Below are positions 22,047 to 58,900 of a DNA stretch of 64,000 bases, one piece after another. How positions within the stretch are numbered: position 1 is the first letter of the stretch; each line of letters opens with the position of its first letter. Made by a program: the position numbers and the translations under genes. Source of the stretch: Hydrolagus colliei (Eukaryota). The stretch lies in the NCBI GenBank assembly GCA_035084275.1, contig CM068748.1, positions 5,208,001 to 5,272,000 of the forward strand, in the 5' to 3' direction. The notes under the pieces are model-generated. The model was not told where the DNA came from. It saw nothing but the letters and a program-made list of their open reading frames with translations, and did no database searches.

Positions 22047-22643
<597 letters not shown>

Positions 22644-31715: not shown

Positions 31716-31789
31716 TGGTCATGAAATGATTGAATTGAATCTTGACAAGAGAATGCTTCACAGGACTTGTGTTTAATGGTCTGAGTGGG

Positions 31790-32415
31790 AATTTGGAGTG
31801 CTTTAAAGGTGAGGACCAGGATCTTGAATTGAATCCTCTAGGTGATGAGAAGCCAGTGGAGTCGGGTGAGAAAGGGGATGATAGGGATGCAGAGCCTGGT
31901 GCGGGAGAGGACATGGGCTTCAGAATTCTAGATAATCTGCAGTCTATGGAGGGAGGAGTTGGGAAGACCGACAAGCACGGCATTGATATAGTCCAGCCTG
32001 GATGTGATGAAGGCATGAGTGAGAGATTCAGCAGCCTGAGGGGTGAGGGAGTGACTGAGTCTGGCAAAGGCAGAGCAGGTTGTGCCATGGATGTAGGGGA
32101 GAAAAGACAGTTCAGGATTGAACAAGACACCTAGGTTCCTGACTGGCTTGGTGAGATGGAGTGTGCATCCATGGAGGCTGATGCTGCCAGTGCCTGAAAT
32201 ACGTAGGCTCTGGCACATGCCAATCAGGAGGGCCTCAATCGTGTTGACATTCAACTGTTGAAAGTTTGTTCTCATCCAGGACTTGATGTCCGACAGGCAG
32301 TCTGTCAGGGCAACAGTGGTCCCGGAATCGAGGGTGGAGGCAGAAAGATAGAGTTGGGTATCATCCACATACATAAAAGTTGACCTTACTGTCTGCGGAT
32401 GGTGTCACCAAGGGA
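31790..32415 (-). mobile_element. L2-clade LINE RT fragment
   Basis: ORF 31928..32374: YVDDTQLYLS...WMRTNFQQLNVN...VRNLGVLFNPELSF...HAFITSRLDYINAVLVGLP. Confidence 0.9.
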
Positions 32416-33628: not shown

Positions 33629-33892
<264 letters not shown>

Positions 33893-35439: not shown

Positions 35440-35649
<210 letters not shown>

Positions 35650-36389
35650 TAATTGTGTGGTTCTATTACAGGAAGTCTAATGATACTGTATTTGTATGAG
35701 GATTATCATCAACAGAGGCAGAAACAGTGCTCATAACTCTTTTCGCCCACAAATATACAATCAATTTTCCTACTCTTCTTCATCCTGCCCCGACCCCTCC
35801 CCCCCTGCTCTTGTCCCTACCTAACTATGCAACACCTTGGAACGTCCTCTTGACGTGAAAGGTGCTATATAAATGTAAGTTTTGATTGATTGATTTTATG
35901 AAGTAGTATCGTGTATATATTTTTCACAGAAAGATAAGACTTTTTACAAATTGTGTATACTATATATGCACATCAAAATTGTTCTGACATTTCCTCAGCT
36001 CTGCAGAAGATTATGTATTCTGCATCTAAAGCACTTATAAGTAGCTCTAAAGCACTAAGCGAGCAATGTGATCAAACCCTAAAGGAATATTTCTTTGCAA
36101 CCTATACTGTATTTAATTTTTATGATGATGGCTTAAACAGATGCATGCACCTGCGTAAAAGGATTTCAGAATATTAATACTAATTTTTTTCACATTTTAT
36201 TTCCTTACACGAATATGTGTTGAGCTGCAGAACAAATTCCGTTACATAAATGATGGAAATTGACTTTTTGTTTTCCTAACTTTTTGTTTTCCTCCTCCTG
36301 TGCTTTACAGTGTATGTTATGCAACAACTACGAATCTTTGCAAAAACATGCGTGAATAAGAAATGAAAGTAAACTATTAGACATTATAA

Positions 36390-37015
36390 TAATATAATAA
36401 TAATCCTTGTTTTTGAAATAGAGCCATAACACGTCTTCAAGGCATATCAAAGCACTTCACCGAATATACTCTAAAGTGAATTGACTGTATATTTTGTGGG
36501 TGAAAACCGGTAGTCAATTGCGCACAGCAGTGTCCCACAAAAACAGATGCAGATTGAAGTGACTAATTTATTAACTTTTTTTGAAGGAAGTATTACCCCC
36601 AGAAAAGTGATCCGGCAATTGACTAACAACTGGGTTCTTACTTACTGCTAGGTAAACAGAGGCACATGGAGTACCGAAACCGCGGATTCCTGTAGCTCAG
36701 TGATTAGAGTACTCACCTTCCAAGTGAGAGACCTGAGTTCAATTCCAGTCAGTGCAAAACCTTGAGGAAATTTCCTTACTCCACATGCCTAACAATAATC
36801 CCTCAAAAAATTTCAATCCATGACTGTTTGTGGGATCCTGCTGCATGCAATTGGCTGCCACGGTTTGCCCACAAATATACAGTCAATTCAGTATAATTAT
36901 ACTCTACAGTATAATTATAATAATTCTTGCATCTTCTAGACGTCTCAAAGCGCTTCACAGAATATACTGTACTATAAAGTGAATTGACTGTATATTGTGG
37001 GTGAAACGTGGTAGC
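36390..37015. mobile_element. SINE cluster: minus-strand 3' half (~36390-36590), plus-strand copy (~36684-36890), minus-strand tail (~36912-37015)
   Basis: Each segment is homologous to the 672..994 / 60751..61043 family. Confidence 0.8.
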
Positions 37016-38449
37016 CTAAAATAGATTATAGAACATGACCCTAACTGGTTACACAAAAGTATCATGTTTATTGATGAATCTTTTTTATTCGCTAAACACA
37101 TTGGCCTTCTTACCTGATCATGAAAGTCTAAAAAAAACCTAAAAATTGGCTGCGGCCTTTGCCTGTAGAATTAATAGAATATTAACAGAATTTTACTCTT
37201 ACTTAAAGCTTCACTGTTGAGTTGACCGTTTTCGACATTCATCTTGTAATACTGCAATAAACTACAAAACATTTACTTTTAATGTTCATCCAGAAAATTT
37301 CATTCATTCAGACATTAAAACCAAATTAGTTGGACAGATGCCACAATGTATTTTCCAAGGATTATGATGATTTACATCAAGTTGCTTCAAGTGTAATCAT
37401 AGTTACAAATGTCTATCTGTAATATTAGTTAGTCACACTTCACTTTATAAATCCTATGAAAATTCAGCCATATTATTAATATATGCTAGTTTTTAATTAT
37501 ATTGGTTTAGCTATTCTTAAATGATCCTAAAGCTTTTTCTGCAAAACTCATTTCAAAGAGGCAGGGACATGTATGTAATGGACATGCTAGCAGAGCAGAC
37601 TGCAGGGATGGGAGGAGGATACAGGGAGAGAGAATGTCATAAGGTTAAATATCTGATGCTCCATTTTCTTGTCAATTTCCTTGTAATCCACAAATTGTAG
37701 ATATTGTATATAGAATTAAGTGCAATAGTTCAGAGAATGGTTCAATAGCACAACAAATTCATTGCTGCTGCCAATCCCATCACCGGAATGCTGCGTGAGT
37801 GATTGATTAAACACAATTCAGCTTGTTAAGACTGTTGAAGCCCATTAAGTAGTAAGAGGGGCAATTCTGCAAAGATGAGAAGGGTTGCTTAAGCCTTTGA
37901 TAAGTGATCTTAAATAACGCAGAGTTGGAAGGATGCCAGTATTCTAGCTGAGAATGCTATCATTTAGTATTTATCTCTATTCTTTCCCCATTGTAGTCCA
38001 TTTGGCATACACCATGAGGTTTCTGGGAAATGTTAGAAATTGAACATTTCACCTCATTGACTTTTATCATTTTATTTAAACCTGACAAATTTACAAACCA
38101 TAAAGGCAACGTTGAGCAAAATTGGGCATCAAAGGGGTTTTGTTGTTGTTTAGTAAAAATGTGTGAATAGTTATAATAATGAACTTTACCCATATTTATC
38201 ATATAGAACATAGAATAGGCCGCCAAACAGAATCTTAAATAAAGTGAATTTAGGTTCACTTTACCAGTACTTAGTTCAGAAAGTATGGGGAATTAAGAAA
38301 TGAGGAAATTAATACTTCAATTCACTGTTCAATCTGATCCTTTTTAAACCATGGTAACCATATTACATTCTTTAAAAATTCTATTCCTAATTTAACATTA
38401 TATATGTTCGGCAACTGAATTAAAATGATCTCAGAAGTAAATGATACAA

Positions 38450-38720
38450 GGGATTATGTTTATCCCAAAATGTTTTTGGATGAAGAATGTCATTTAGTCC
38501 ATTTGTTCTCATCCTTCCAAAACACCTGCCCTACCATCACAGCATAAAATTATTTTTTAATGAATTCAGTTTGCTGGCCTCAAATCCAGTCATTAATTGT
38601 TCTTAGAATAAAGAAAATTTCCCAGTGTCTGTCCTAAAATCGTTCTTTGCAACTCTAAACCTCTTGATCAACTGTCTTGGTGCATCCTGAAGCATTATTC
38701 TCAGTTTACTTTATCAATCC
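38450..38720 (-). mobile_element. CR1-type LINE 3' end fragment
   Basis: Reverse complement of 12420-12670 (ttggatgaagaa...catttgttctcatccttcca...tttgcaactctaaa...ctgtcttggtgca). Confidence 0.65.
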
Positions 38721-38939
38721 TGTTTAAGTTAACATCAAAATTGATATTTATCTAAACATGAATCAAGCTGGAAAAGTTATCCTTGGCACAATTAAATGAA
38801 ACAAATCTGTGATTACCTTAAACTTTCCATGAAAGGAGACTTTCATTTTCTAGGATCATAGTTTTTAAGGAATGATTCAAATTAAAATTAAATTAAAGGT
38901 TGGTTCAGTTACTTTGATTTCTATATTTCTGGCTTTTAG

Positions 38940-39128
<189 letters not shown>

Positions 39129-39324
39129 TAAGCTAAGCAGCAATGCTGGGATTTTGCAGCAGATATATCGTGCTGGCTACTTGCTATGCGGACAAAAAGG
39201 GAGAAAGTATGGGTGAGTACAATTACTTTTGTGTGCCTGATTATTATTTTACTGGTCAATGGTGACGAGACAAATTAAATGAGCCCTCATTTTTTCCACC
39301 ACTGATTATATTTCTTTTTGCAAA

Positions 39325-39560
39325 TCTCTTCTGCTCTAGAACTCAGCTGCAATCTCCTCCAGCCCTATTCTCCTGCCTGTGCTCTTCTCTTCTAACTCTG
39401 GTCTGTGCCTCATTTCTCCCTTTCTCCTTCCCTCGATTAGTGACTGAGCCTTGATTCACTTTGCCCCTGCTCTCTAACAAAATCCCTTCACCTTGCGTTC
39501 TCTCTCCCCACCTTCAAATTCCTATTGAAACCTTTTATTGAGCAAGGCTTCGGACAAGAC
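39325..39560 (+). mobile_element. Decayed L2 3' fragment
   Basis: ctgcaatctcctccagccctattc...gagcctt...ccaccttcaaattcctattgaaaccttt parallels 29695-29895. Confidence 0.5.
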
Positions 39561-40395
39561 ACTTAAATTTCCTTCCCATTACTTCCTTGCTTGGGGATCC
39601 CTGCTCCCACCATGGTTGTTAATAGGGGTGGTTGCTGAATGGAGGTGGTTGCTTGAACAGGTTTGATTGTATCATGGCCTTGGTTTGCCCATTGTCAATG
39701 GAACTGCGGCCACTAGAAATAATGGCACAAATATTTAATCGCTGTGCAAATTGAATTTGATTTTGTTATAGTGAAAATACTAATTAATTTAATTTGTATT
39801 TGAAAATCTGTTTCAGTTCCTGTTATTTCTGTGAGCATAACAAACATTCTCTAGACGTTTAAGCAAGATTGGAATCAATATATTCTAAGTTATTGATGGA
39901 AGTATGGTGATAGTACATGTCTCTACTTTCACTCTCCTCCCATGATATTGTTATACTCTGTCATGTTACACAGGCAGAGTAAGGCAGTGTAACAGGAATT
40001 AAAAGCAAGTAATGCAGATTGTACATGAATCAATGTGTTGGTATTCAAGTGAAAGATTTGTATTATAACTGTAGTGATTGTGAATAAGTTACTTATTAAT
40101 AACTAGCCAGCAGAAGGTGAGAGTCGGCTATAAATAACTTCACTGTAACTAACATTAGCAAGTGCATTTAACTAATGTAAGTGATTCCAGACATTGCTGC
40201 CATGACAATTATCACTCTTGAAATTGACTGCGTGGTTTTAGGCATTAAAAGGAAAAATCAAGAATAATTGAACAAGTGGAAGTACCCTTCATCACCTATT
40301 GATGAGAGCAACAATCAAGAAGTTTATCAATGAAACCTGAATTCCAACTCTTTTTACAGTCTTGAAATCACGTGATAATGTTCAGCATTTTTATT

Positions 40396-41187
40396 ACATT
40401 TTGCTTTTAACTTATTTTGTTGCTGGCAGTGGCTTCTTTAGCATCTCCACGCCCAAGTGTTAATGTTTGATACCAAGAGTGGATTAATGTTAGGGAGGCA
40501 AATACTCCATGTTTATTGAGAAGCTATATGCCCTTCATTTATACTCGTTTTTGCCCATTTTGCATGGTAAATAGAATATAATGTAACGATAAAAATGTTG
40601 CCATGTTGTAAAACCAGTGTATGTTGTTTGTGGAACATTATTTAAACAGAATTTGACAAAGTAACATGTAAAAGGCATATTTTGATTTTTTTTAAAAAGC
40701 TACAATCAATGTAGAACTAGGAAAAGATACATTACTCCTTAAAGTTGTAACTTTATCTCTACTTTTGTGATTTAATTTGGAAGCAAAAACTGACAAAACG
40801 CTTATACAGGATGGTACATTTTCCCATTTTGGAGTTGGATGAAATATGTGCTGTTTATATAGCAACTGTGCATCTCTGAAAATGGCAGAGAAATAATGCC
40901 AACCCTTCCATCACTAACATTGCTTGTCCTATTTTCAAATATCTGTTCCTCCATTAGGCTGACAATTTACCCTGTTTACAGCATAGATTTACAGAAGCTG
41001 ATGCTAAGCCATACAGGAGACAAACAGTACGACATGTGAGTGAATGCCCATGTTTTACTTATGTATGTTGTAGGACTGCTATATTTTGATTGACAATGGA
41101 GAAAACATTTTATAACTAATCAAATTCACATTTTGCTTTTAACTTATTTTGTTGCTGGCAGTGGCTTCCTTAGCATCTCCACACCCA
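40396..41187 (+). repeat. Dispersed 60-bp direct repeat (40396..40455 and 41128..41187)
   Basis: acattttgcttttaacttattttgttgctggcagtggcttc(t/c)ttagcatctccac(g/a)ccca, 58/60 identical. Confidence 0.92.
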
Positions 41188-42813
41188 TGCTTTGTGCTCA
41201 CTGGTAATTTCCAGTTTGATTTGAAACATTTGACTTTGCGGCAAACACCTCTAGACTTCATCTGAACTTAGTTTGTAAAACCATTTTCTCTTAAAATTTT
41301 AAATCACCAGTCATCCAGCAAACAACTGAAGATGGAAGTTAAGAATTTTCCACAATGTTGTGCCATCTTAGATTTTGAGGCAAGATGATCTTTCAGGCTG
41401 ACTGAGTGAAATTTCAGCTTCTATTTTATTAACAAATCTATCACTTTCATGTGGCTAGACTGATATTCCTATCTGGGATGGTTATTTGGATTGAAGCAAT
41501 AACCTTACAGAATGCAGCACAAATCTCAAGGCAAAATGTTTCTTTTTCTTACTCTTTTTAATTGGATAATTTGGGGTCAGTTAATTTAATTTTGGGGGGT
41601 TTCATTTCACGCACTGTAAGTGCTCCACGTTGGAGTGGAGGAATGAGCCTACCAGTGGACACATCAAGTATGCTGCGGTATCATCAATAAAATAGCTTCT
41701 GCCTCGTCACATAGAATATTGCACAAGAAATGCACCCTGGCAAATGATGTGAGCAGCAGTACTCAAATAGTTTTTTTTCTCACAATCTCAATAAATTCAA
41801 GGCTTTAATTCTGCCTAATATTCACGAGCCATTTAATGGCATATAAAGAGACATTACCAATGAATATGGGCTAATCTTACTTATGCCTTGAATACAGGCA
41901 CGCACATGAAAATAAAGCTGATTTTCACTCAAAAAACTGGAGAAAAGTAACCCTTTTTAAATCCTTTGTATGAAATCATAAATTTAAATTAAATTACCTT
42001 TAAGTAGATTTGACTGTAAATCAAATGTGACATGTTAATTGGTTATTCCAGTACTTAGTCTTCCAGGGTTTATATATAGTGGTTTATTTGCCATATTTCC
42101 CAACTGTGATATCCAAAGACATTTTGGGTTTGTATCAAACAAAAAGTTAATAACAAAATTTAAAACACATTGAAATAAAACAAAGGCAAAATCTCCAAGG
42201 AGAATGTGTTTAAAACAAATCCAATCTATTCCTTGGGCAATGCTCAAAGTTGAATGCAGTTGAAAAATAGATCAGTTTTCTTATCAAAATACGTTATACT
42301 TTTGGAAAAAGTCATTAGCAGGACATAATCATAACACAGATCATAGCAGTCACAGATCCACAATTTAAAAACTGTCTACAATTCATCACAGATTAGCATT
42401 AAATAGGGATATTCAACCATAGCGACTATTAGGAAGGCAAGTATTGAAACTGGCTAATTATAGTAATTTGCTCAACACAATCATCTTGTACTACCTATTT
42501 AAATAATGTTCCTGTTGTGTTGTGGCATGCTGAAACAATCTAGTTTTCAAGTGACTCCTTCCTTCCTTTTCTTACATGGGATCCTCAGATAAGCCAAAAA
42601 TTGAGCACACCCTGGTACTGTACTTACTTTGTAGATCTTTCAGTAGAATTTGGTTTATGAATAAGTCATACATTTAATTTTGATTCCTAAAAGTAAACAA
42701 TTCTCTTCGGATAATGGCCATTAATACCCAATGAAGAATGGTACTCCACAAATTTTCTAACATTTTCAAATTTGTTTTAATTTTAGTCTACATTGTTTTC
42801 ATTCTCTGTGTAG

Positions 42814-43011
<198 letters not shown>

Positions 43012-43497
43012 TGACAGACAACAATATCAATGGCATGCTATGTTGTTTTAGCTAGTTAGACTCTGAATTAGGTCAGGATGTATCCCTCTAAGGGAGAGAG
43101 TGCGCATTGCAACAATCTATCTCTGGAATTTCCATGTGTAGGTGGATGCATGGAATTTGCAGCTTGGTTTGGATCCCCTTGAACATGGTGATTGGTATTT
43201 GCATGTGTCAGACACCTGGCTATCCTCCAAAAAGAGGCTTACAAACTGGAAAAAGTTAAATCTCAGCCCAACAAAGGCTGACATGACCCAGAAACACACA
43301 AAATAAAATGAGGCTCATTGTTTATTACCTTTTGGAGCACAAATTCAATCTTTTATCTGTTGGAATCTAGCATAACATTAAAAAAATCTAAGAAATGTAT
43401 CCAAGTATAATACTTAATACAATATTTGCAACCAATCTTTTGCCCAATTCCATTTGCCCACTTTATGATTCTTACATTGAATCTTTATTTTTTTCAG

Positions 43498-43533
43498 GCA
43501 TTGGAGACAGCTGGCTACGTCAAGAGTGTTATT
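43498..43533 (+). CDS. JAKMIP3: JAKMIP3 coding exon 7 (36-nt microexon)
   Basis: tttatttttttcAG|ALETAGYVKSVI|GTAAGT. Confidence 0.9.
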
Positions 43534-44719
43534 GTAAGTGTTACAATCCAGATTTTATTTGCCTCAAAAGAAGTTAGAAGTGCATATCATCACATTGATG
43601 TTACAGCTTCTGGCAATTCTGACAAATTAGATATCTAGGGAAATGTTCTTAATTTGGAAAGTATACACATAGGTCTTTTGGCAGGACCATGGCATAGAGG
43701 CTAAAAGCTGACTGTATTTCCACAGGCAACTATCTAAATCATGTAGCTTCAAATTGGGGGGAGCGCAACCTTTCAGCTATTATGTACCATCCAGAATTTC
43801 CTGATACTGCCAATTTTCCCTTTGTGTCAAAGACCATTAGCAGAATTTGATCATCCATTGTTACATATGCAGTTACAATTGATATATTCAGCTGCTAAAC
43901 TGAAACTCACAAAAAGTTCAACTTCCGATATATTCCAAATCACATCATAGCACTTAAAGCATCATGTGACATATTTGACAATCATTTCACCGAGAACCGA
44001 GTCTTTCATTAATACTTTAGAAGCAATAAGAAGAAATGAGAGCTTTGCCCACATGACAGGGTCAATTGGAGCAATCTAGGCAAGGAAATTACTACCGGAC
44101 ACTGGCATCCTGTTCCAAATAATTTGACCTCTGAGTTGAAATAAAATTAATCTTGTTAAGTGCAGTTTATAGCACAATATCATATCTGAGAAACTAGCCG
44201 TTGAGATTCAATTAGAGTGTTGGTTTAATGAAGGGTGGGTTGGACAGTGCGCGAGCAAGTAATACTGTAGGAGGGAAATATTAACACACCAGGTCACAAT
44301 GCAACAAAATTCTATCATCAGCTCGGCAGAAGATCAAATTGAAGTTTAGCCCCAAATTAAATGATTCTCGCAGGTATGGAATGAAATAATAAAACAAAAT
44401 AATAAATAATAAGACCAGTATTTTATCATGAAAATAATGAATAAAATGTTACCTGATTATCTGCTGAAAAATCAATTGCAATCCAAGATCAGATATCAAG
44501 ATCCCAGAAAGAGTAACAACCCCATAGTACCTAAATCATCAGCAGACATAAAGTGTGTACCCAATTCCCCTCAAAATATAGAGCGCCAAATAGGGAAAAA
44601 TGTGCACAAAAACCATATCAAACAATTGCTTCACTCTTTTGGCTCTTCTATTTAATTAGCATTGTTCTACCTGAATTTTCATGCTTGTTTGCAAGGAATA
44701 ATCAAATTCACACCTTTAA

Positions 44720-44900
44720 TATTAACAGAGCAATGTTACTGCTGCCAACTGTGTCAAAGCTGATGGAAAACAAAGTGAATGAGAAGCTGTTTCAACATTT
44801 CAGACAATCTGCTATCTAATTGCTAACTTGGCTTTGGAGCAAATCAAGTGTTTTGTGACATTCTCAACATAGACAATCTCATTACTGTATCTAGAACCTG
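44720..44900 (+). mobile_element. Old non-LTR retrotransposon RT remnant
   Basis: LLPTVSKLMENKVNEKLFQHF resembles the RT N-terminal motif (YRPIS)LLPxxSKxxExxVxxxLxxH. Confidence 0.45.
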
Positions 44901-45103
44901 AGTAATTATGACTCAATGCGTTCAGCATTTCTGCAACCGTAAGCTTAGCAAATCGATCACTGTGGAATTGCAAGACAGTTAATAAATTCGATATCTCTGT
45001 GATATCTAATCTTCCTTATGTAATATTAAAGCCATCCTACAATCCAACACAAAATTTTGCAAATATTTGAATTCTGAAAGCCTTTCATGTGTTTATACAA
45101 CAG

Positions 45104-45163
45104 GATCGGGACAAGCTTCTACATTACAAAAAACCAAGGAAAAAAGTTACAAAGCCCAGCAAG
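45104..45163 (+). CDS. JAKMIP3: JAKMIP3 coding exon 8 (20 aa, basic)
   Basis: tatacaacAG|DRDKLLHYKKPRKKVTKPSK|GTAAAT. Confidence 0.88.
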
Positions 45164-46064
45164 GTAAATACAGAAGCAACAGTTTAATTTTTAATGGCTG
45201 TCATTGTGATTCAACCCATGCCAAAATCAACTGTGAGCAACCAGGTGAAATTTACAAGACAAACTTAAAAATAAATCCTTGGGCTTCTTGGACAAATATA
45301 TTAGGAGGCAACATGCATCCATTAAAATATAGTCCTGTTGCTGAAATCTGTTTCAATTACATTTGAATTACACTTTCATTTTAAAATGTCATCGTTTTGA
45401 GAGTCAAACGCACTGGTCCTGTTTTGCTTGATACAAAGTAGTACTGATCATTAATCTTTTATCTTTGCAATATGCAATCCTACCTGTCAAATGAGGCATG
45501 TTGAAAGAGTAGAACTTTTTGGATGAAAGCAATAAAATGGCCAGATAGGTAAATATGAGAGCAATGTATTTAATTTAATTGGAAAATAATAGATTTTTTT
45601 AAACACTGCTACTGTTAATAATTCATTCAATGGTACAACAAGAATCTTACATTTTCCAGTGCAGCAAGTAAAGAATCAGACATATTCATCAGACCTCAGT
45701 CAAAGCTGGAACATAGTTGCTCAGCGTTACCTCATCTTGGAAATTTTTCTCAATTCTAAAGTTGTTGTACCATGAAATCTTACATTAAACATAATGGTAT
45801 TCACAAGTATAACTAATAGATGTTTTAGTCCAAGTGTTTGCAGTATTCTATACCAAGGAGGATCTCAGGAGAAGACCAAGATTCCCGTGGATGGCCAGAA
45901 AAAGAATCACTGTAGGCAGTTGACCTATAGTAGAAAATTATCTTAATCCAAATATTTCAAATAGAAATTGTAGGGTGATTAATAGCGACAGAGATTTTGC
46001 TTCCTTGAAACTTGAATTTGCAAAGGATTTATGGATAGTCTCTCTTATATTAATCTTACTTTGA

Positions 46065-46211
<147 letters not shown>

Positions 46212-46221
46212 TAGCATTCAG

Positions 46222-46603
46222 AAAACAACAACAACAACAAATTACATTTATAGAGCGCCTTTCACGTCGGGAGGACGTCCCAAGGCGCTGCACAGGAGGC
46301 GTGTGACCCGAGCTGGGAGGGGAGTGTTTGGGAAGGGGTGAAACACGAAGGGGAGGTAAAAGAGTTCGGGGTGGAACAAAAGGCACGATTGAAGAGGAAA
46401 GTCTTCAAACCGGCCTTGGAAGAGGAAAGGGAAGAAACGAAACGGAGTGATTGAGGGATGGCATTCCATAGGGTGGGAGCGGAGAAATTGAAGGCCCGGC
46501 CTCCGATGGTGGGGCAGTTCGGGCGGGGGGCTTGGAGCAGGCCAAGTCCTGTTGAACGGAGGGTCCGGGTGGGCGCCTAGGGGGAGAGTAGATCGGTTAA
46601 ATA
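46222..46603 (-). mobile_element. Young, GC/CpG-rich L2 3' fragment with intact tail and (ttg)n microsatellite end
   Basis: (caa)n-attacatttatagagcgcctttcacgtcgggaggacgtcccaaggcgctg, followed by the reverse of GGRAF...LWNAIPQSLR...FKTFLF. Confidence 0.88.
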
Positions 46604-46998
46604 GTTGGTTTATGGTACAATTTCAAGTGATTTAATTTGGATATCTTTCTAAATATTTCAATTGCTATTGAGATGGACAGTGTATTTTAAGTTTACATTA
46701 TGGGCTTTGGATTTATTGTACATTTATTGGCATAGCATTAACAGATTAGAAGAGAGGTAGGGATGAAGAAAGCCCATTGGTCCACTTTATATCATTTTTA
46801 AAGAACAGCTATCCTACTATTTTCCTATTATACCATCAAACTATTTCATCACTGCCAGCCTCAAATCACTCTTGTGAGGAGCCTTTTACAATACTGATCT
46901 ACGTTAAATCTACGTAAGGAAGAATACAGTTAAAATTTAAGTGTGATTCTGTACTCTAACTGAGCTAGTAAAATGTATTCACTGGTTCCTCTATTTAG

Positions 46999-47241
<243 letters not shown>

Positions 47242-47640
47242 TGAAATAGCACACAAACTAGCAGAGCATAAATGCTAAATCTATGTCAGTGGTGTCATTT
47301 CAAAGTTAGAAAATGTTGTAACGGATCGGGTTCAATGGTCAGAATTACTATGTTACATTTTCTCATCTGACCATTGTATTTAAAAGATGAAAATGAACAG
47401 CTCTTTGGTAGAATCTATTTCTTTCATTAATCATGAGTACTTTCTGAACATTTTCATTGTTTAGGTTTGTAGTTGTTTATCTTGCCACAACTCCTTCGTG
47501 CTGCTCTTACCAGTAACACCAATAAGGCAATGCCCTAGGGAGAATGTATATTTCTATAGTTCAGAGTGACAGCTTGGAGGTAAAAAGCTAATTGAAGAGA
47601 GAAGCAGTCTTCACTTTTATTCTTTTTCCTCACATTTTAG

Positions 47641-47724
47641 ACTCGTGAACAGATACAAGCAGAAAACCATAGATACCAAACCAAGATTGAAGATTTGGAA
47701 AAGGCTCTTGCAGAACAGGGCCAG
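47641..47724 (+). CDS. JAKMIP3: JAKMIP3 coding exon 11 (28 aa)
   Basis: cacattttAG|TREQIQAENHRYQTKIEDLEKALAEQGQ|GTAATA. Confidence 0.94.
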
Positions 47725-48742
47725 GTAATAATTATATGTGTAACGTACATCAGGCTCCAAAGACCCAAGGTGTGGAGAATCAGTCTTGTTCTGGTGCAGT
47801 AATGTTATCAGTAGCAGTGAAGCGATAACCTATCTAACTTAATGATAATCCATCTTTTTACTTAAAAATTAGACCTGGGCACATTCAAGCACAGGACAAT
47901 GATAATCTTCAGTGGTCAAGCCCTTAAACAATTTTCAGAAACATTTTTCAGCCTATGTTCTTTAAAAAAGATAAAATAAAGCTAGGATTGAACCTAAAAA
48001 TACAGAAGAAAGTAACTGTTAATTATCGACATCCAGCTAGGCAGCAGCCGCTCGATATCCAGCTAACCTGGTCTCCTATTGCCTCCAGCACTAATTGATT
48101 ATTTGGTCTGGAAGTTGGAGCATTTGGTCTTCAGTATGGAAATACTGGATTTTTGATTGATATCATCCTGATGTGACATTTGCCAGATTTTTCTGTGCTA
48201 TTAAATTACCCACGGTGCAATAATGAGTATCAGCTATGAACAATGTCCAGATACAGTAATAATTTACAATCCACCTGGGCATAATAGTATAGAATTACAA
48301 ACCTTTATCTGATTTGAGTCCAGGTTGATCGAGACAAATGTGTTTATCACATCAGCAGCTATATTGTTTTTAGAAAACAAATAAAGAAAATCTGTTCCCT
48401 TGACCATATCACAATTACAATTTTTCCTCAATGTTCAATAATCAATTCTGACTCTCAGAGGCAAATAAAAATGGGAGGAGTACAGGTGGAAGTGGACAAG
48501 GGAAGATGAGGAGTAAGACAGTACCCGGAATCAGGAATAGTACATGCAACAGAAAGCAAAGATAAATCAGGAATAACGGAACAATCCATTGTAAATTTTA
48601 TATTTTGATGCTTGAAAACAGAATGAAAACAGTCTTTAATTACATAGAAATGTAGTTGTAAACCACTATACAGTATTAAGTAGTATTTATGTGGGGATCA
48701 GACTAAAGCTTTTCAAGACTTCATTCTCATTTGCTTTTTTAG

Positions 48743-48805
48743 GACATGAAATGGATTGAGGAGAAACAAGCATTATACCACCGGAACCAAGAGCTACTGG
48801 ATAAG
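48743..48805 (+). CDS. JAKMIP3: JAKMIP3 coding exon 12 (21 aa)
   Basis: gcttttttAG|DMKWIEEKQALYHRNQELLDK|GTATTG. Confidence 0.94.
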
Positions 48806-48987
48806 GTATTGATTCTCAGACATTCGAAGGCAAATAGAACTGATAAAGACATTATACAGTACTGTATTACCATTATTATTTTATTTAGGTTTATTTAGTT
48901 TTCTGACACTATCATTCAGATTTCAAAGTAACCCGGTTAAAATAGCAGGTAAAAGTTAAACTCCAAAATTTGTGTTTCATTTTGCAG

Positions 48988-49086
48988 ATGCAACAAATGC
49001 AGAATGAAGAAAACCGACTTCGTCATGACGTACAAGATGTCAAAGATCAAAATGAGCTTATGGAATTTCGGATTTTGGAACTTGAA
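48988..49086 (+). CDS. JAKMIP3: JAKMIP3 coding exon 13 (33 aa)
   Basis: cattttgcAG|MQQMQNEENRLRHDVQDVKDQNELMEFRILELE|GTAAAT. Confidence 0.94.
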
Positions 49087-49579
49087 GTAAATAAAACCGG
49101 AAATCCCAATGCCATTTCTATTTATAGTCATTCTGATCCAGGATATCTGGAAATTGGAGACTAATATGCAGTGATTTGTAAGGATTCATTCTGGTAGCAG
49201 TTTATGCAGATACCAGCAACATGGGGGGAATCTCTGCTCTAAATGTAGATTGTGCATAATAAAGTTCTGGAGGGAAATTGCTGCATAATAGACTTGTATT
49301 GTACATTTTAAATACATACAATGCCGATTGTTAATGTACATAATGGGGATTAATTTGCAGTATTTCTTAACAGTAAGCAATCAAATTCATGCAAATTATA
49401 CATCTTCCAATAACCAGAAGTAAGTGATAGAGCCAATGAGAACTTTACTCTGAAGCAATCTACTTCCACGGCCAAAATCTAGTCTAGTGGATGGGCGGGA
49501 TTTCTTATTGAGGAATGTCATTGAGAAATAGCAAAGATTAATGTGCAACTGAGTTAAAAGCTTCAGTCTTTTTTTCTAA

Positions 49580-49729
<150 letters not shown>

Positions 49730-49816
49730 TAAAAGGGCACAGGGTATTAGTTACATGTGTTTAATATAGTCATCGAACGGGTCCATTTCAAACTTTTCAC
49801 CTTTCTGATTTGTCAG

Positions 49817-49870
49817 GACATTTCTGTAGCAGATCTCATGAAAAAACTGGATATCTTAGGAGATAACGCC
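49817..49870 (+). CDS. JAKMIP3: JAKMIP3 coding exon 15 (18 aa; alternative end at 49876 adds VS)
   Basis: gatttgtcAG|DISVADLMKKLDILGDNA|GTAAGT GTATGT. Confidence 0.93.
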
Positions 49871-50220
49871 GTAAGTGTATGTTGCTTTTCTAATCATGCA
49901 TGTATTCGTTTGTTTTGTATATCTGTCACTATGTAACCTCAGGGAAAATCTCAGAATACCCAAGTACTGTACTATACATTCTGTTGGACTTCATGCTCCA
50001 ATATTTATTTGTAGTGCAATCTCTAATTTGCTATTGCCACACTTCAAGCCAACCCCATTGATTGCTGTAGTTAACACATGCAAAACAATACCCAGGAACC
50101 AGGTCGCCATGCTGTGCACAGGAAGTGCCACAACATTAGCCTTTTGCGGTTTCTATTCATTCCCTTTGTATCTAACAATTTTAGAAGTTTGATTTTGTTG
50201 CATCAAATTTCCCACATATA

Positions 50221-50706
50221 CAGTAAAAGCCCGTTTATCCGTGACTCGATCAACCGGAACTTCTGTAAAACCAGTACGTAAAAAAAAAAGTCCCCATCTA
50301 ATTAACTGGATATTATCCATCACAATCGCAGTGGCGCATGTAATGAATCGATTGTCGCACAAGAGTACAATACAGGTATTTTGGCGTGCCGCTAGTAGAG
50401 CCTTAAAGTCGCGCTGCCGTTTTTTTCCCTCGCGTGGCATCCGCCATTGCAGAAGTTATCGATAGACTTCAACCCCAGCATCAAGGCTTCAAACTAGGCA
50501 TCTACCAGCAAAGGTGATTTTTAGGTGAATAACAAAGGTCTGTTATTATCTGTTATTATTTAGTCTATTATTAATATGGTATGTGTTAAAATAAGTTAAT
50601 TTTTTTTATGTTGGGTTTCCGGCGTCGGATCTGACCGAATATCCGTCATGCAGTTTAACCGGCATTGGCCAAGTCCTGCGGGTGCTGGATAAACGGGTTT
50701 TTACTG
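50221..50706. mobile_element. Non-autonomous Tc1/mariner-superfamily (Tigger/pogo-like) MITE, 486 bp
   Basis: TIRs cagtaaaagcccgtttatcc (50221-50240) and ggataaacgggtttttactg (50687-50706) match 19/20. TA dinucleotides flank both ends (50219-20, 50707-08). Confidence 0.88.
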
Positions 50707-50837
50707 TAATGCTATATATGATTCCCGTTTAGAAATGAATGCAATAAATTTCAAAACGGTCTTCGTTCTTAAACACTTGTCTCTGCTGCCTTGACTAATC
50801 TGAAACTTTTATTGAAAGGTATTTTATTTACTTGTAG

Positions 50838-50903
50838 AACTTGACCAATGAGGAGCAAGTGGTTGTTATTCAGGCCCGAACAGTGTTAACCTTGGCAGAA
50901 AAG
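50838..50903 (+). CDS. JAKMIP3: JAKMIP3 coding exon 16 (22 aa)
   Basis: ttacttgtAG|NLTNEEQVVVIQARTVLTLAEK|GTAACA. Confidence 0.95.
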
Positions 50904-51107
50904 GTAACAATATTATTTCTTTCATAATGCAAGCTACAGTGCCAACACATTTGAGGCAAGTCCTTGCGAGTATTCAAAGAATAAACCATGTTTAGAAGGC
51001 AGATTGATTCGTGGAACCCTGTACTCTGGCAATTTAAATATTAAAAAGAAATGAGTGTTAATTGTTGAATTCTAATTAAATTTATTTGGTTTTCCTTCAA
51101 CCTCTAG

Positions 51108-51176
51108 TGGCTCCAACAAATTGAAGTTACAGAATCTGCACTGCAGCAAAAAATGAACGATCTGGAAAATGAAAAG
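51108..51176 (+). CDS. JAKMIP3: JAKMIP3 coding exon 17 (23 aa)
   Basis: caacctctAG|WLQQIEVTESALQQKMNDLENEK|GTACCA. Confidence 0.94.
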
Positions 51177-51211
51177 GTACCAGCAAGAAACATCGACATT
51201 ATCAAAACTGA

Positions 51212-51570
<359 letters not shown>

Positions 51571-51882
51571 ATGAGCTAAATTTATTTGTTAAACACAATG
51601 TCCCATCTCATGAAAAACTTGTGAATGGGCGCCTGAATAAAATGGGATCCAAAAACAAACCAATGTGACTTTGAACTGATATGAGCTATATAAGATACCA
51701 TATTCAGTATTTAACTGCATTATGACTCTTAAAAATCTTTCACTATGAGTTCTTCAAATGGGCTTTTCTTTAAGATAACATTTCCTAACATTTAGATGAT
51801 TCAAGAAAAAAAAACTCGGAAAACTGTAGATTGTAAAATGTAATACAGTAATCAATAACGTTTTGAACATTAATTTTTATGA

Positions 51883-52406
<524 letters not shown>

Positions 52407-53393
52407 CCTAATTTAATAACCCACTACAATACTCTTATTTATTCCTTACCAAACAAAAGGATTTTGTCTCAAAACAAGAGAAACGTAGCATTGACATGGA
52501 TTTTGAAAAGGCTGGAATCTCTTTTCTTTTGGGTCAATAAAATCTTTCACTCCAAGGCTGTTTAACTACTAGTAGAAAATATTCCCGTCTCTGAGTCAAA
52601 CCAACATCTGAGCTTCAGCTACAAAATGTATTATCAACAATTGGAGTTCACAGTTCTTCAGTGATTACCACGAGGACCTAAGCATATTCCACATGGTTCA
52701 GCAAGCTTACAATAACTGCTGTATGCACCCAAATACCTGTTTGTTAGGATACCTTGGTATACATATGTTCCTTCATGTACAGATTAGATCTTTTATTATA
52801 TTGTATAAAGTTCCCATCCAAATATTTACTACAAAATAATGTTTTACAGACTACAAATATATTACATATTTAAGATATGACGGAATAATCCTTTACAGAG
52901 TAACATTATTGTGTGTTTAAAAAAAAATGCAGGTATTGATTTTAAAATCAGTGCAGGATATTTGAGCATCCCTTCAGTGTTTGCGGATTTGTTTTGACAA
53001 CAGCAATGCATATTAAACATGCTTGGTCTTAATTCTGGGAGGACTGTTGATTCATTGGGTTTGCATTGCAGGTAATTGAGGATTTCTATCTATTTGCAGA
53101 GCCTAAGGTTTTAAACGAATAATATGTGAGCCTATAGTTTAGCAGGTTTTAACTAATTACCAGTGGTACTTATTTGCCAACTAAAGCTGGTGGGTAATAA
53201 AGATGTCTATTGAGAAAAATGTATATTATAAAGCTATTAAATTAGCAAAATCTCCAGGTGCCATAAAGATGCCAATTATATTTCCCACTCAAGTGTGGTT
53301 ATTGCTTTAGAAAACAGATTTTCCTCTGTCCCACCATTTTCTGTCAGAATTTCTGTTCATCTTAGTTTTACAAAGCTATATTGCAACATATAT

Positions 53394-53636
53394 TAGAGCT
53401 TTTTAAAGATATTTATTTTTAATTCATAATAGGAAAACAACACAATGTGACCATTTTAAATAAGACAATTAATTTAAAGTTTAATTTCTAATACTCATAT
53501 CAGTGTTTTTCTTTAGTTGTTTATCATGTTGTTTTCCTATTATGAATATATACAATTTTTTTTAAAAGCTCTATTATTTGATATGAGTATTATAAATCAA
53601 GCTTTAAATTAATTGTCTTATTCAAAGTGGTTGCAT
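53394..53636. repeat. Interleaved double inverted repeat A-B-A'-B'
   Basis: A 53394-53442 pairs with A' 53527-53573; B 53445-53502 pairs with B' 53579-53636 (51/58). Confidence 0.9.
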
Positions 53637-53891
53637 CGAAAGCCTTAACCTACCTCCCACTTCTAGTCTTCATGTAAAATTGTAGCATTTTTCTGGTTTA
53701 TTTCAGATTTCCTTAGATTTATTCAGGCTAGAGCCTCTCTCTTTTTTTTAGCCTGGAGATTATTCTTCTAATTTACTTCCGAAATATTTTCATTGTAAGC
53801 TAATTTTAACTTTGATGACTTATTGATTTGGAAAATGTACATCCTTAAAATATTGGTAATTCTCACATCATTCCTGATTTAAATTTTGCAG

Positions 53892-53957
53892 AGAATCAAA
53901 GAATTAGAAGAAAAGATTGAGGCACAGAGAAGACAGATAAAAGAGCTTGAGGAAAAG
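53892..53957 (+). CDS. JAKMIP3: JAKMIP3 coding exon 20 (22 aa)
   Basis: aattttgcAG|RIKELEEKIEAQRRQIKELEEK|GTAATA. Confidence 0.95.
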
Positions 53958-54422
53958 GTAATACAAACTATTTAAACTATTTAAAATGCACATTCTAAAG
54001 TGCTACAGTTGATTCAATTTTTAATGTTAAATGCAATATTTGGTTAAAAAATAATTTTGCTAACTTTAGTAAAATGTAACTTTAGTAAAAATAGAATATG
54101 AAGTGTGAAACAATTCTATTGTTATTTAGTTATATTTTAGAAAATAAAAAATGTGTGTATTTGACAAATCTAATGTGTCTGCTTATCTTTTAATATCTTA
54201 TCAATGTTGCTTTGGTAAAACTTGGTATAAAAATGTTGGAAGATCTAGTTTAATATAAAATTATAAATTAGCCCTCTTCACATGTGTTGCTATTTTTTCT
54301 CTATGCTTGATACACCAGATGGCTTTTTTTTCAATTATTTTACTTATGTCACACTTCACTCCGCTTAAATTCTTGTTTTCTGTCTGTTCTTCCCTATTTC
54401 TTCCTTTCCTGTTCATTTTCAG

Positions 54423-54473
54423 TTTTTGTTTTTGTTTTTATTTTTTTCTTTAGCTTTCATTCTTTGGTCGTAA
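54423..54473 (+). CDS. JAKMIP3: JAKMIP3 coding exon 21: C-terminal hydrophobic membrane anchor plus stop; exon continues as UTR to 54498
   Basis: Long pyrimidine tract ...gttcattttcAG|FLFLFLFFSLAFILWS*(TAA 54471-54473); donor AAG|GTAAGG at 54499. Confidence 0.93.
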   Translation, partial: FLFLFLFFSLAFILWS

Positions 54474-55860
54474 TACTCCCAGGCAGTCAACAAAGAAGGT
54501 AAGGTTTCTTATTTTGACAGAATAGGTTTCGTAAATGGGACATTGGGAAATTTCATGGGAAATTTACTGAAGTAAATGGGGTGGGAAAAGAAGACTTGAA
54601 TGATGCAGTGCTCCACTATTTATCATTTACTTTGTGTGCTAACTATGACGTTTAAAGACTTTCGCTTTAGTACATAATGCAGAAGTTAGTAATAATTGCC
54701 TTGTTAATTTATCAATATTGTCAAGGCAAAAGTCCTTGAATAGTGTGTGACAGACTAAGACATTTCTATGTACAGGCAATCATTTTAGTGAAACTCGAAA
54801 TAATTTTCAGGGATTTTTTTTCTATTTGCTGATTAATTATTGGTGAAGTAGAGACAGATGTACAGTTTCTCACAACTCCCACAGTCATTGCTTTTGAAAG
54901 CCTTATATACGTAAATATTGCAATAAATATATAGTAAAGAATAAATAACCACGTCTGGGATGCAAAGGCGAAGATATTTCTGGATATTGATTTGGGTGAT
55001 GTGTGCACTTGATGAGGTATCTAATGTGTGCTGCAGTCAAACTGCATTTTTCATGCCTGTACAAACTTAGTGGTCTGAGCAGTATAATTTGGGAGTAAAT
55101 CGTGCATGAGTTTCCTTTCATTTCCCTTAATTGAAGCACTTCTCTATAGACCCCAGGAGTCTTCCATTTCGATAAAGAAGATGTGACACCAGCCAAGGAT
55201 GGCTCTGTGGAGAGTATCCATTACTGGACATTGATTTGAGTGTAATTGTTCTTTGTGTCCCACCACGTTTTGGCTGCATTAAAAAAGAGGTCTTCAAATC
55301 AATTCCCAAACACACTGACTGCAAACAAATCAATAGCTTGTAGTGGATACACTCTGGCTGATGTCACTTGCTCACTCTTCATTTGAACAGAGATCTCCTG
55401 GGTTATGCACAAGAACTCTTCAACTAGGATTTTTTTTGTTTTAAAACACATTGATAGCATTTAAAATATAATAGTCATATTTTTATTAAGTATTTATTCT
55501 AATGGGATGACAACTTATATTTTTGGCAACTTGCACTTGATATTCATCAGCGATAAATGGGTATCTTCTTTATTTTAAATGCCTGTGATCAAACCTTTGG
55601 TAGAATTGGAGTTTGCACTCAATGTTTACGCAAAGTTTAAGTTAGTATCCTTGGAATTTATATATGAAGCTTGCTGGTCAATGCTTATTTTAAAGCAAGT
55701 ACTGTGCCTAGTTTTTGTTACTGACATTTCTTCCATTTTTAAAGCTTGTTGTTAATCAAGCTCAAGTTTAAAGAAGTGACAGTTAAGTGATGTTAGTGTG
55801 ACCTGTTGTCTTTATAATTGATTATTCTACAGTCATTTAAAATCAGTTTGTTCTTCACAG

Positions 55861-55983
55861 GTTGCAGGGAAGGCAAGTAAACCAGGCACTGTATTAAATG
55901 ATCAAATTACAGTGTTATTTCAAGAGAGCCCAATACTGCAACAAGATGTCAAGTGTATGAGAGAAAACCTCACAGTTCTCTGA
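55861..55983 (+). other. JAKMIP3: Candidate downstream exon start: 3' UTR for the anchored isoform, or 40-codon alternative C-terminus for an anchor-less isoform
   Basis: Acceptor tttgttcttcacAG|G at 55859-55860. Phase-0 frame is open: VAGKASKPGTVLNDQITVLFQESPILQQDVKCMRENLTVL*. Confidence 0.45.
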
Positions 55984-58900
55984 GAATATGAAATGCATGG
56001 AGAATATTCAGGGTTCAGAAGCCACTGGGCAAACGTGCCTAGCAGTAATTCATTATTCAAAAGAAACCTTGGAGAACCGTAACATTGTTTTGGAAGACAT
56101 GTTCTGTAAAAATTTAATAAAACCACTACAGGAAAGCACAGCCTCAAAGGGAACTTATGTTAGCACAAAATCATACCATCGACAAGCAAACGCTTGAGGA
56201 TTTAGAACATCAAACCCCAAGGATGATACTAAACAAGAAAGAATCCATCCACAAAGTGGCTGAATGAATGGTACAATGTATTTGTGGATGAAGGAAGGAA
56301 TGGCTTTAAACTTTTCTGCTGTGCAGGAGACAAAGACAACCGCTTCTGTAGAGAAGCATAATATCCACTTCAGATTTATTTCTATTTTATATGCTTTATG
56401 TCTGGAATTTGGCGTATTTCCAGAGATGGTGAAACGCTGGCGACGAGACGTTTCCCGAACCAGTGCGGAAACACTTTTTGTTGAACCGATGGAGTTCTGA
56501 ATCAGAACCAGGTACATTTCCCTTCAGACATATTGGATAGTGTGTGGGTTACACACAGCTCACACTGGTAACCTTACAACCAAAACACTCTCCAGCTAAG
56601 ACAAATGCAATCTCAAGCAAAATGCTAGACTCTGAGATGGCACAAAAATATGAATTTGTGTTTTGCAGCAACTTAAAATATTTGAGATTTACAAAAAAAT
56701 GATTTGTGAACGTGTACAAACATAGGCATTTGAGTGTATAATTGGAAGACTTTTTGAGCGCTTGTAAGGAATGATTCCAGTCAGCTTTTGGGATCTAAAT
56801 TAATTTTGCATTATTCAAAGAAATGTGATTCCATGATTTCCAGTGATGGCCATCAACTTAGTCAGAAACCCAAAGCTCTACACTGTGAGAACATCAGAAG
56901 ACTGGCAAATTGTTTCGGGGGTAAAGAAAATTGCCAACAAAGATCAGAGGTGCTTTTCACATAAACTATGGGGCAACAAAGATGTTAGAAAAGTATTGCC
57001 AATAAGAGAAAAATTAGGTAAATTGCAGCAGTGTAGTTCTTAGTTACAGGCAAGATGACCAGTAACAAAAAGTACCCACTCGTATAGTTTTCTTTTCAAA
57101 ATGGTTTTCCAAGCAAGACCATGATGAGTTACACTCAGAGGAAAAATTCAGCGTTTGAAAACAAATGAATTAGTAGAGACACTGATTTTGACACTCAAGC
57201 ACTGAACAAAGGGAGGGAAGAAAAGAAACAAATTCATATTTCTATCTGGATGCAAACGACAAGAAGATGTGCCAAGCATTCCTTTGGTAAGGAATTACAG
57301 AAAAACTGAGTGATATTGGACTACAGCAAGATCATTGAATCATAGAGGTATATTTAACCTTGATGGATATTGCAAACAATCATCCTAATATGGAACAGGT
57401 AAGGAATACATGGTTAGTTTGTTAAAGGATATGTACTTTATTTGTTACAATTATTGGAAAAATGACCAGTTTGGTGGTATTTCCTGTTTTCCGAGTTGTA
57501 GTTTCATCTTGGGAGCATGGTTGCAATGCTAATGTGAAGGAAGAGACTTATGGATGTGTATTTAAAAAAACACTCCACTTTACTGACACAAATCACATTT
57601 TAATCTTTAACCATCATGAGCATCAGTTCAGAGAATATTAATTTTCCTACTAAATTAATATTTTTGTTTATTGAGTAAAGGTTCATATCATTTATATTTT
57701 CAGAGCTGCATTGCAATCTGTTTTTGTGTTCCATTAAAAGATATGCAGCTGCTGCTGGCCTACATATGCATTTCATGTTTTTATTCAGCAAATACTACTC
57801 ATTTTGTGTGTGTGATTTTACGTTTGTCATTTTTCTCCCCCCATCCTATAATGACACACCCTAATCTGTTGTTCATATGTTTTATCAAGCTTGAATTAAA
57901 GTGAAAAATGTAGGTTGGAACAGTCCTGGGGACATCCACTCTTCCTGATGACATTACCAAAATTAGGAACTTACCATGGGCAGAATATTCTCTCCTCCCC
58001 TCCTTTCTGCTACCTCTGAGACACAACTCAGACAAGCATCAACATATGCAACAGCCACAAGACTTTAATATACATTTTTATTTATTCGTGCTTGTTCTGT
58101 GTAAAATCATTGATTTTTTTTAATGTCTATTTCTGTTCTATTCTGGCAGCATGATTCCACTTTAATTTAATTTATTGCTGATTTAAAATAACTGCATAAT
58201 ATGACTTCCTGCAAATGGGTCATTAGCTAAATCTATTGTATCTAGGGGATCCTGCTGCAAAGATCACAAGGTCTTGGGTTTAATGCTTTACTCATGCTGA
58301 GTTAACTGGCTTTAGTCGGGAAATTAAACTAAGCTTAGCTAACAGGGCTCAGGTGTTAGAGAAGATAGAACAGATCATGTCCTTGCAGAAAAGACTCTTG
58401 TCATCTATGAAATGACACGACTTATGTTGGTCATAGATTTGAGTGACTATTACTACCGTTGCTTAAACCTAAGGCATCCATTTGAAGTAAACATCCTGTA
58501 CTTGGTTTTATATAAGCACACAAAACCAGTAGCTTCATGAAAACCTTTCCAAAAACCCAGATGCTGTTCAAATGTGACAAGTGCTACAAGGTCGTTTTCA
58601 GTGTTGTGGAAAGTAATTTTTAATGTCAAAATAACAAGGCAATTGCTGTACAAGATAGATTGCTGTTTGTGGGACATTGTTGTGCTGCGTTCATTTACAA
58701 AAGAAAAACAGTAACTACATTTTACAGTAAATCCTGCAAATTATTTGGAACATCCTCCAGGTTGCACTTTTGGCTTGCACTTTTATGATTAGACTGCTAC
58801 CAGATCGCTTTCCTAGAACAATCCCAAATGAAAGACTAGAGCTCAGAAGAGACAATCTTAATGGCATACCTATTCCTGGCTTTGCGGTGTTTTGGAGTTA

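What the first reader, a model, noticed from the sequence alone, without database searches (positions are those of the whole stretch)
54423..54498. Dual-use terminal exon: the membrane-anchor codons are also the polypyrimidine tract of a second, frame-shifting acceptor
Seen: splicing at 54422 gives FLFLFLFFSLAFILWS*, encoded by tttttgtttttgtttttatttttttcttTAG|ctttc. That T-run plus AG (54452-54453) is a strong 3' splice site in its own right. Using it skips 31 nt and opens another frame, LSFFGRNTPRQSTKK. This frame is exactly 45 nt, bypasses the TAA, and ends in phase 0 at the donor AAG|GTAAGG (54499). Joined to the candidate acceptor at 55860 it would continue VAGKASKP...ENLTVL* (40 aa). Inference: one 76-nt exon switches the protein between tail-anchored and soluble forms, with Phe/Leu codon choice constrained by splicing. 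From memory, anchor-less JAKMIP3/NECC2 isoforms are reported in mammals, so the novelty would be the mechanism and its deep conservation.
Basis: partly seen in the sequence, partly recalled or inferred. Interest (0 to 1): 0.75.

Follow-up and report, generated by a model that had tools for sequence, protein, structure and literature searches.

The report
Splice site inside membrane-anchor codons
In a cartilaginous-fish gene for the scaffold protein JAKMIP3, a second splice site lies inside the codons of the membrane anchor and likely yields an unanchored form; databases already predict this form in many vertebrates, and an anchor-less form of the protein is published for rat.

Summary
The window is the JAKMIP3/NECC2 gene of a chimaera-like fish. 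Exon 54423-54498 encodes the 16-residue tail anchor. An internal AG (54452-53) scores as the strongest acceptor in the gene and opens a 15-codon frame that joins exon 55861 in phase.

No RNA from this species could be tested. Predicted database proteins carry this junction in 12 of 20 cartilaginous fishes seen, three teleosts, turtles, lizards and birds, and in two JAKMIP1-like paralogues. None was seen for coelacanth or amphibians, and one fish JAKMIP3 locus has lost the AG while keeping the anchor peptide.

An anchor-less isoform made by 'intra-exonic splicing' of this exon is published for rat, though its primer points to a different junction.

The codon-constraint idea is only weakly supported. 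Random recoding of the peptide gives the same pyrimidine content, and a usable acceptor 22% of the time. The alternative tail is poorly conserved and is frameshifted here. The exon is not terminal.

Verdict: an old, real-looking alternative acceptor that is one of several routes to a known anchor on/off switch. No earlier scan note on this gene was found.

The parts
14349..56197 (+). JAKMIP3 (NECC2) gene: 20 coding exons up to 53957, then the anchor exon and a downstream exon
   Evidence: tblastn exon map against shark and chimaera proteins; first large exon 96% identical to Callorhinchus milii JAKMIP3; Pfam JAKMIP_CC3 on exon 46074-46193
53892..53957 (+). Last coiled-coil exon, ends in phase 0; shared donor for all C-terminal forms
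   Evidence: donor score 10.1
54420..54422 (+). Main (proximal) acceptor CAG, preceded by about 100 nt without AG
   Evidence: score 8.9, top 1% of 2593 AGs
54423..54473 (+). Anchor frame: 16 hydrophobic residues and TAA
   Evidence: identical peptide in 102 of 111 anchor-type proteins held; hydropathy 2.69
54423..54450 (+). U-rich stretch (86% T) coding the Phe/Leu residues; predicted pyrimidine tract of the internal acceptor
54451..54453 (+). Internal (+31) acceptor TAG, formed by the Leu TTA and Ala GCT codons
   Evidence: score 12.8, highest in the gene; same junction in database models of 12 of 20 chondrichthyan species
54454..54498 (+). Alternative 45-nt exon form; 15 codons, the first 6-7 overlapping the anchor frame and its stop
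   Evidence: 5-6 of the first 6 and 3-5 of the next 9 residues identical to shark models
54499..54504 (+). Donor GTAAGG, 25 nt after the anchor-frame stop
   Evidence: score 10.8; distance
55861..55983 (+). Downstream exon: 40 codons of hydrophilic alternative tail in the +31 form (or after skipping the anchor exon); predicted 3' UTR in the anchored form
   Evidence: colinear with shark tails; maximum hydropathy 0.48
55967..56197 (+). Remnant of the longer shark tail in a shifted frame (frameshift near 55980)
   Evidence: 20-27 of 43-47 residues identical to six shark tails

Best explanation
The anchor exon of this fish JAKMIP3 gene carries two splice-acceptor sequences 31 bases apart, and the inner one is likely used in some transcripts, which would drop the membrane anchor and give a predicted unanchored protein with a 55-residue hydrophilic tail.

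Shown: the two acceptor sequences, both frames, the donor, the downstream exon, and the same junction in predicted proteins of many jawed vertebrates.

Inferred: the two sites compete for the same upstream donor. The Phe/Leu codons supply a ready-made U-rich tract, largely as a by-product of coding a hydrophobic helix. What matters functionally is loss of the anchor rather than the tail sequence. The anchored transcript would escape nonsense-mediated decay because its stop lies only 25 nt before the next junction (50-55 nt rule, established knowledge; assumes 55861 is the last exon).

By analogy with rat NECC2, the anchored form would be an integral membrane protein and the other a cytosolic or peripheral scaffold. 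The +31 site is one of at least three routes to anchor loss, with skipping of the exon and the rat junction.
For: Site strength.

An N-terminal query blind to the C-terminus (best 120 of 5804 hits), plus cluster members, gave 129 chondrichthyan records: 71 anchored, 52 +31-type, 3 other and 3 without the junction. The +31 type occurs in 12 of 20 species, both types in 7. The +31 type also appears in carp, loach and chum salmon models, and in 4 turtles, 2 lizards and 23 birds (that query was chosen for this junction).

A published rat primer matches 54448-54469 at 19 of 22 bases including the TAG, and a marmot model contains the same frame. Two JAKMIP1-like models start with residues compatible with the same +31 frame.

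Rat: anchored 844-aa and anchor-less 915-aa isoforms were amplified by RT-PCR, and only the anchored construct floats with caveolae membranes (PMC3765260). Alternative tails run 25-150 residues, and the window's has no hydrophobic segment.
Against: The models are computational predictions and I did not see their read support.

No +31 record was seen for 8 of 20 chondrichthyans, including the closest relative Callorhinchus (2 records), for coelacanth (19 of 19 anchored), three frogs (7 of 7 anchored) or a caecilian (4 anchored, 5 other). Fish JAKMIP3 locus L001 has no internal AG.

The rat isoform-specific primer reads EEK followed by PSA, not the +31 junction, so the one experimentally confirmed anchor-less form is probably a different splice.

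The window's tail is frameshifted against sharks, and tails are about 50% identical against about 87% upstream. 10 of 67 distinct alternative tails have a hydrophobic patch above 1.6, so 'soluble' may not hold everywhere. A passable acceptor arises by chance in 22% of recodings. No consensus branch point was found.
Confidence: 0.65

Rival explanations
1. Splicing noise: the Phe/Leu codons make an accidental tract, the AG is a chance by-product, and annotation pipelines pick up a low-level cryptic junction with no selected function.
For: 24% prior for the AG and 22% for a passable site; pyrimidine content 0.89-0.93 in all 5 DNA loci with or without the AG; patchy distribution; unconserved, frameshifted tails; 3 of 5 loci other than the window keep the AG (2 of L001-L004 plus the rat primer), which is not far from chance.
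Against: In 4 shark species every record seen is +31-type (11 of 11, 8 of 8, 3 of 3, 1 of 1), and in one skate the single record is. The 15-residue frame stays open and in phase in all 13 distinct shark tails. Residues 2-3 are identical in 274 of 274 JAKMIP3-type records, which fixes two synonymous codons.
Confidence: 0.2
2. Strong dual-code version: selection on the internal acceptor shapes the codons of the anchor and helps explain why the anchor peptide is nearly invariant. Compatible with the best explanation, but claims more.
For: Observed score reached by only 1.5% of recodings; T content 0.86, 0.75, 0.75 in loci with the AG against 0.64, 0.71 without; the four synonymous sites just after the AG match the window at 10-11 of 12 positions in teleosts, sauropsids and mammals against 4.2 expected (P about 7e-4), but at only 8 of 16 in JAKMIP1-like sequences (P=0.16).
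Against: The peptide is unchanged where the AG is absent (L001, L003). Three of the four Leu codons up to the AG end in purines besides the one that forms it. Pyrimidine fraction is not raised (P=0.42). The synonymous test sees only lineages that have the isoform, assumes saturation and was chosen after seeing the data. Control: rat against window third positions match 4 of 6 in the dual-use stretch and 4 of 7 in an ordinary exon (read). The T-content comparison has n=5 and is confounded by genome composition.
Confidence: 0.2
3. The switch is real in sharks and amniotes but decaying or unused in this chimaera-like lineage.
For: Frameshift cutting the downstream tail to 40 residues, with the old frame still visible behind it; no +31 record among 2 Callorhinchus records.
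Against: All three splice signals are strong and in phase; two stingray-type species also have a shortened tail yet keep +31 models; one of the two Callorhinchus records is truncated before this exon.
Confidence: 0.12

Closest known systems
Rat Necc2 / Necc2-alpha (PMC3765260; passages and sections 17 and 22 read, figures and supplements not seen)
   Same: [quoted passage not shown]
   Different: The alpha-specific primer implies a junction other than +31: an acceptor further downstream, possibly the AG of a TAG stop, or exon skipping (my inference). In the text I read, the paper does not discuss anchor codons as a pyrimidine tract or conservation outside rat.
NCBI/UniRef predicted JAKMIP3 isoforms (for example Chiloscyllium punctatum XP_072413743.1, Triplophysa rosa XP_057184556.1, Dromaius XP_064370487.1)
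   Same: Exactly the +31 junction and frame; in sharks also the same downstream exon.
   Different: Automatic predictions, not studied; shark tails are 125-150 residues against 55 here; the sauropsid exon form appears to be 14 codons, not 15 (inferred from protein only).
Soluble splice variants of tail-anchored syntaxins (bioRxiv 10.1101/162958; passages read)
   Same: Alternative splicing replaces a C-terminal anchor by a short hydrophilic tail of no conserved sequence; several routes in one family, including an alternative 3' acceptor (Stx1AS).
   Different: [quoted passage not shown]
Dual-coding exon regions made by frame-shifting alternative acceptors (recalled, not from a call)
   Same: One stretch read in two frames after alternative splicing.
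   Different: The overlap here is only 6-7 codons, and the skipped part doubles as the splice tract.

Membership tests
JAKMIP3/NECC2 | Best sequence matches are JAKMIP3 | tested here: met
   118 of the best 120 hits are named JAKMIP3 or are unnamed or hypothetical frog-like records; top hit 96% identical. No tree was built.
JAKMIP3/NECC2 | JAKMIP_CC3 domain (PF16034) | tested here: met
   exon 46074-46193, 48 bits against a cutoff of 30.2
JAKMIP3/NECC2 | C-terminal hydrophobic region ending in WS | tested here: met
Frame-shifting alternative 3' splice site | Second AG with a tract, offset not a multiple of 3, open frame to the donor | tested here: met
Frame-shifting alternative 3' splice site | Junction reads in this species | not testable with these tools
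   no RNA holder listed; only DNA-type contigs laid
Frame-shifting alternative 3' splice site | Same junction in orthologues | tested here: met
   12 of 20 chondrichthyan species, 3 teleosts, many sauropsids; predictions only; not seen in coelacanth or amphibians, AG absent in L001
Rat Necc2-alpha isoform | Same acceptor as the published isoform | tested here: not met
   primer d reads EEK followed by PSA, not the +31 frame; Figure 1B of the paper could not be seen
Anchor-less (soluble) isoform | Product has no transmembrane segment and is not membrane-integral | tested here: inconclusive
   hydropathy maximum 0.48 against 2.69 supports it; localisation untested
Codons constrained by splicing | Synonymous sites more conserved or biased than expected | tested here: inconclusive
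   searches point both ways

The most novel reading that the evidence does not exclude
The +31 acceptor is older than the JAKMIP1/JAKMIP3 duplication and has been kept since the origin of jawed vertebrates as a regulated anchor on/off switch written into the anchor's own codons, with splicing selection fixing synonymous sites around it; membrane-anchor exons in general would then be hot spots for such built-in acceptors.
Probability: 0.2. Interest if true: 0.55.

Novelty: new member of a known kind. Interest (0 to 1): 0.32.

Why it matters
If true, the anchored/unanchored switch described for rat NECC2 (a caveolae-associated modulator of TrkA and insulin-receptor signalling) is old, and knock-down or antibody studies need to tell at least three anchor-less forms apart. 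More generally, it is a clean, minigene-sized test of whether hydrophobic codons create alternative acceptors by accident or under selection. It does not reveal a new kind of system.

Tried and rejected
No own genome is held. RNA: no RNA holder listed. The one run laid gave contigs with DNA-like, intron-spanning cover; one contig spans 52377-59066 without gaps, including the frameshift, but may be the window's own source. Neither bears on expression.

Pattern scans of viral and prokaryote collections found 0 hits; the metagenome scan gave 4 vertebrate-like loci.

Two searches aimed at mammalian isoforms returned only sauropsids among their best 120. Mammalian evidence is limited to rat primers, one marmot model and one unnamed skip-type protein (P0483).

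Homology of the downstream exon between sharks and sauropsids: profile comparison was negative (probability 0.1; HMM scores equal to shuffles). A junction-anchored ungapped test gave p<0.05 in 13 of 40 pairs, all with three non-passerine birds, none with turtles, lizards or a jay. Inconclusive.

A branch-point consensus search found none for either acceptor. The matrix omitted one real exon (49817), which then appears among the top background sites. My recollection that syntaxin 3S uses an acceptor inside the anchor exon was wrong; it is exon skipping.

Literature searches found no paper on the +31 site or its conservation; the library lacks most subscription papers, including the first NECC1/2 description. 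Passages only were read of PMC6201366, PMC2685396, PMC12732012, PMC2189523, 10.1101/305904 (Jakmip3 exon 4, unrelated) and 10.1101/162958; other papers were seen as listings only. The supplements of PMC3765260 were not available and may show the rat junction. Earlier scan notes: none on this gene. No structure or complex prediction was run, as it would not decide the question.

Full report
Identity. The window holds a complete JAKMIP3 (NECC2) gene on the + strand. Its large second exon is 96% identical to Callorhinchus milii and 84-91% to sharks and rays, so the source is probably a chimaera-like fish (inference). tblastn maps the coding exons from 14349 to 53957, and one exon hits Pfam JAKMIP_CC3.

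Observation. With a matrix built from 18 acceptors of this gene, the internal site scores 12.8, higher than any of them and than all 2593 background AGs; the main site scores 8.9, the downstream acceptor 7.0, and the donor at 54499 is matched by 1 of 2341 GTs. The matrix is crude and rewards T-richness. The exon is not terminal: it has a strong donor, and the anchor-frame stop lies 25 nt before it, inside the distance at which nonsense-mediated decay is normally not triggered (established rule; it assumes 55861 is the last exon, which I did not show).

Is it more than chance? From sequence alone, only moderately. Recoding the same peptide at random with the gene's codon usage gives the AG in 24% of 200,000 draws, a passable acceptor in 22% and an equally strong one in 1.5%; pyrimidine content is unremarkable (P=0.42). 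All five DNA copies of the exon that I hold have 89-93% pyrimidines over the first 28 nt, whether or not the AG is there.

Orthologues. A query from the N-terminus, blind to the C-terminus (best 120 of 5804), and members of ten clusters that I chose gave 129 chondrichthyan records: 71 anchored, 52 with the +31 junction, 3 other, 3 without the junction. Twelve of 20 species show the +31 form and 7 show both. A junction-targeted search returned the form in 120 of 120 rows, from 4 turtles, 2 lizards and 23 birds; that count is selected by design. Representatives from the all-protein search add carp, a loach and chum salmon, and the frame inside a marmot model. Two JAKMIP1-like models, from an electric ray and a mudskipper (labelled '2-like' by their source), begin with residues that fit the same +31 frame, and both JAKMIP1-like DNA loci keep the TAG (L002, L004). 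All of these are predictions; such pipelines usually rest on RNA alignments (my knowledge), but I saw no read counts.

Against universality. Coelacanth (19 of 19 records) and three frogs (7 of 7) show only the anchored form; Narcine, Pelodiscus and a caecilian show other junctions that look like skipping of the exon. Locus L001, a teleost-like JAKMIP3, encodes the identical anchor without the AG, as does the JAKMIP2-like L003. The anchor peptide therefore does not need the acceptor to stay invariant.

The tail. Alternative tails run from 25 to 150 residues (67 distinct) and change frame between lineages. Window versus sharks: about 87% identity upstream, 5-6 of 6 in the overlap, 3-5 of 9 after the stop and about 50% in the next exon. 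The window's tail stops after 40 downstream residues because of a frameshift, and the old frame is still readable behind it. This pattern fits selection for losing the anchor rather than for the tail. It resembles soluble syntaxins, whose replacement tails share no sequence (10.1101/162958, passages).

Codon constraint. For: residues 2-3 of the second frame are the same in 274 of 274 JAKMIP3-type records, and the four synonymous sites after the AG match the window at 10-11 of 12 positions over three other lineages against 4.2 expected (P about 7e-4), but at 8 of 16 in JAKMIP1-like sequences; T content is higher in loci with the AG (n=5). Against: ascertainment, possible non-saturation, and a control from the rat primers with 4 of 6 third-position matches in the dual-use stretch against 4 of 7 in an ordinary exon.

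What is known. [quoted passage not shown] PMC6201366 (passages) finds the adipocyte protein soluble. Their primer c shows that rat keeps the +31 AG, but the isoform-specific primer d reads EEK followed by PSA, so the confirmed rat form is probably not the +31 splice. The functional switch is thus known; the +31 route is in databases but was not found in print in nine searches of a library that lacks most subscription papers.

Verdict. A real-looking, old alternative acceptor inside the anchor codons, likely used (0.65), with noise (0.2) and loss in this lineage (0.12) as rivals. It works like the rat Necc2/Necc2-alpha switch but is probably not the same junction. The dual use of codons as a tract is mostly a by-product of coding Phe and Leu. 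Interest 0.32; 0.55 if an origin before the gene duplications and selection on synonymous sites were shown.

Noticed in passing
window 55960-56197: Frameshift cuts the alternative tail; the longer shark-type frame persists in another frame at about 50% identity. Two stingray-type species have an independently shortened tail at about the same place.
   Followed up: partly
window 53957 to 55861: Skipping the anchor exon altogether would also be in frame and give a 40-residue hydrophilic tail; Narcine, Pelodiscus, caecilian and an unnamed mammal-like protein (P0483) show such junctions.
   Followed up: partly
window 54922 and 54940: Two AATAAA signals in the intron after the anchor exon could make it a true last exon in some transcripts; another AATAAA lies at 56116.
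   Followed up: no
PMC3765260 primer d: The rat anchor-less junction may use the AG of a TAG stop codon at +51; sauropsid frames imply TAG there, whereas the window and most sharks have TAA, which offers no AG. Inference only.
   Followed up: partly
L003 and L004, 77 nt after the acceptor: Donor-like sites at nearly the same distance as the window's (76 nt), suggesting that the intron after the stop codon is shared by the paralogues.
   Followed up: no
window 49817-49870: An 18-codon exon present in shark models but missing from the Callorhinchus UniRef model.
   Followed up: partly
window 23230-24140, 29423-30038, 31666-32404, 46248-46622: ORF pieces in introns that look like LINE reverse-transcriptase remnants (by eye); high-copy repeats near 51385-51412, 52120-52400 and 58660-59190.
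   Followed up: no
bird proteins P0155, P0159, P0354 and others: 10 of 67 alternative tails have a hydrophobic 15-residue stretch (above 1.6), so some may regain membrane affinity.
   Followed up: no
protein database: The anchor peptide is almost invariant across JAKMIP1, 2 and 3 (108 of 111 differ at most in the last residue), unusual for a plain anchor and unexplained by the splice site.
   Followed up: partly
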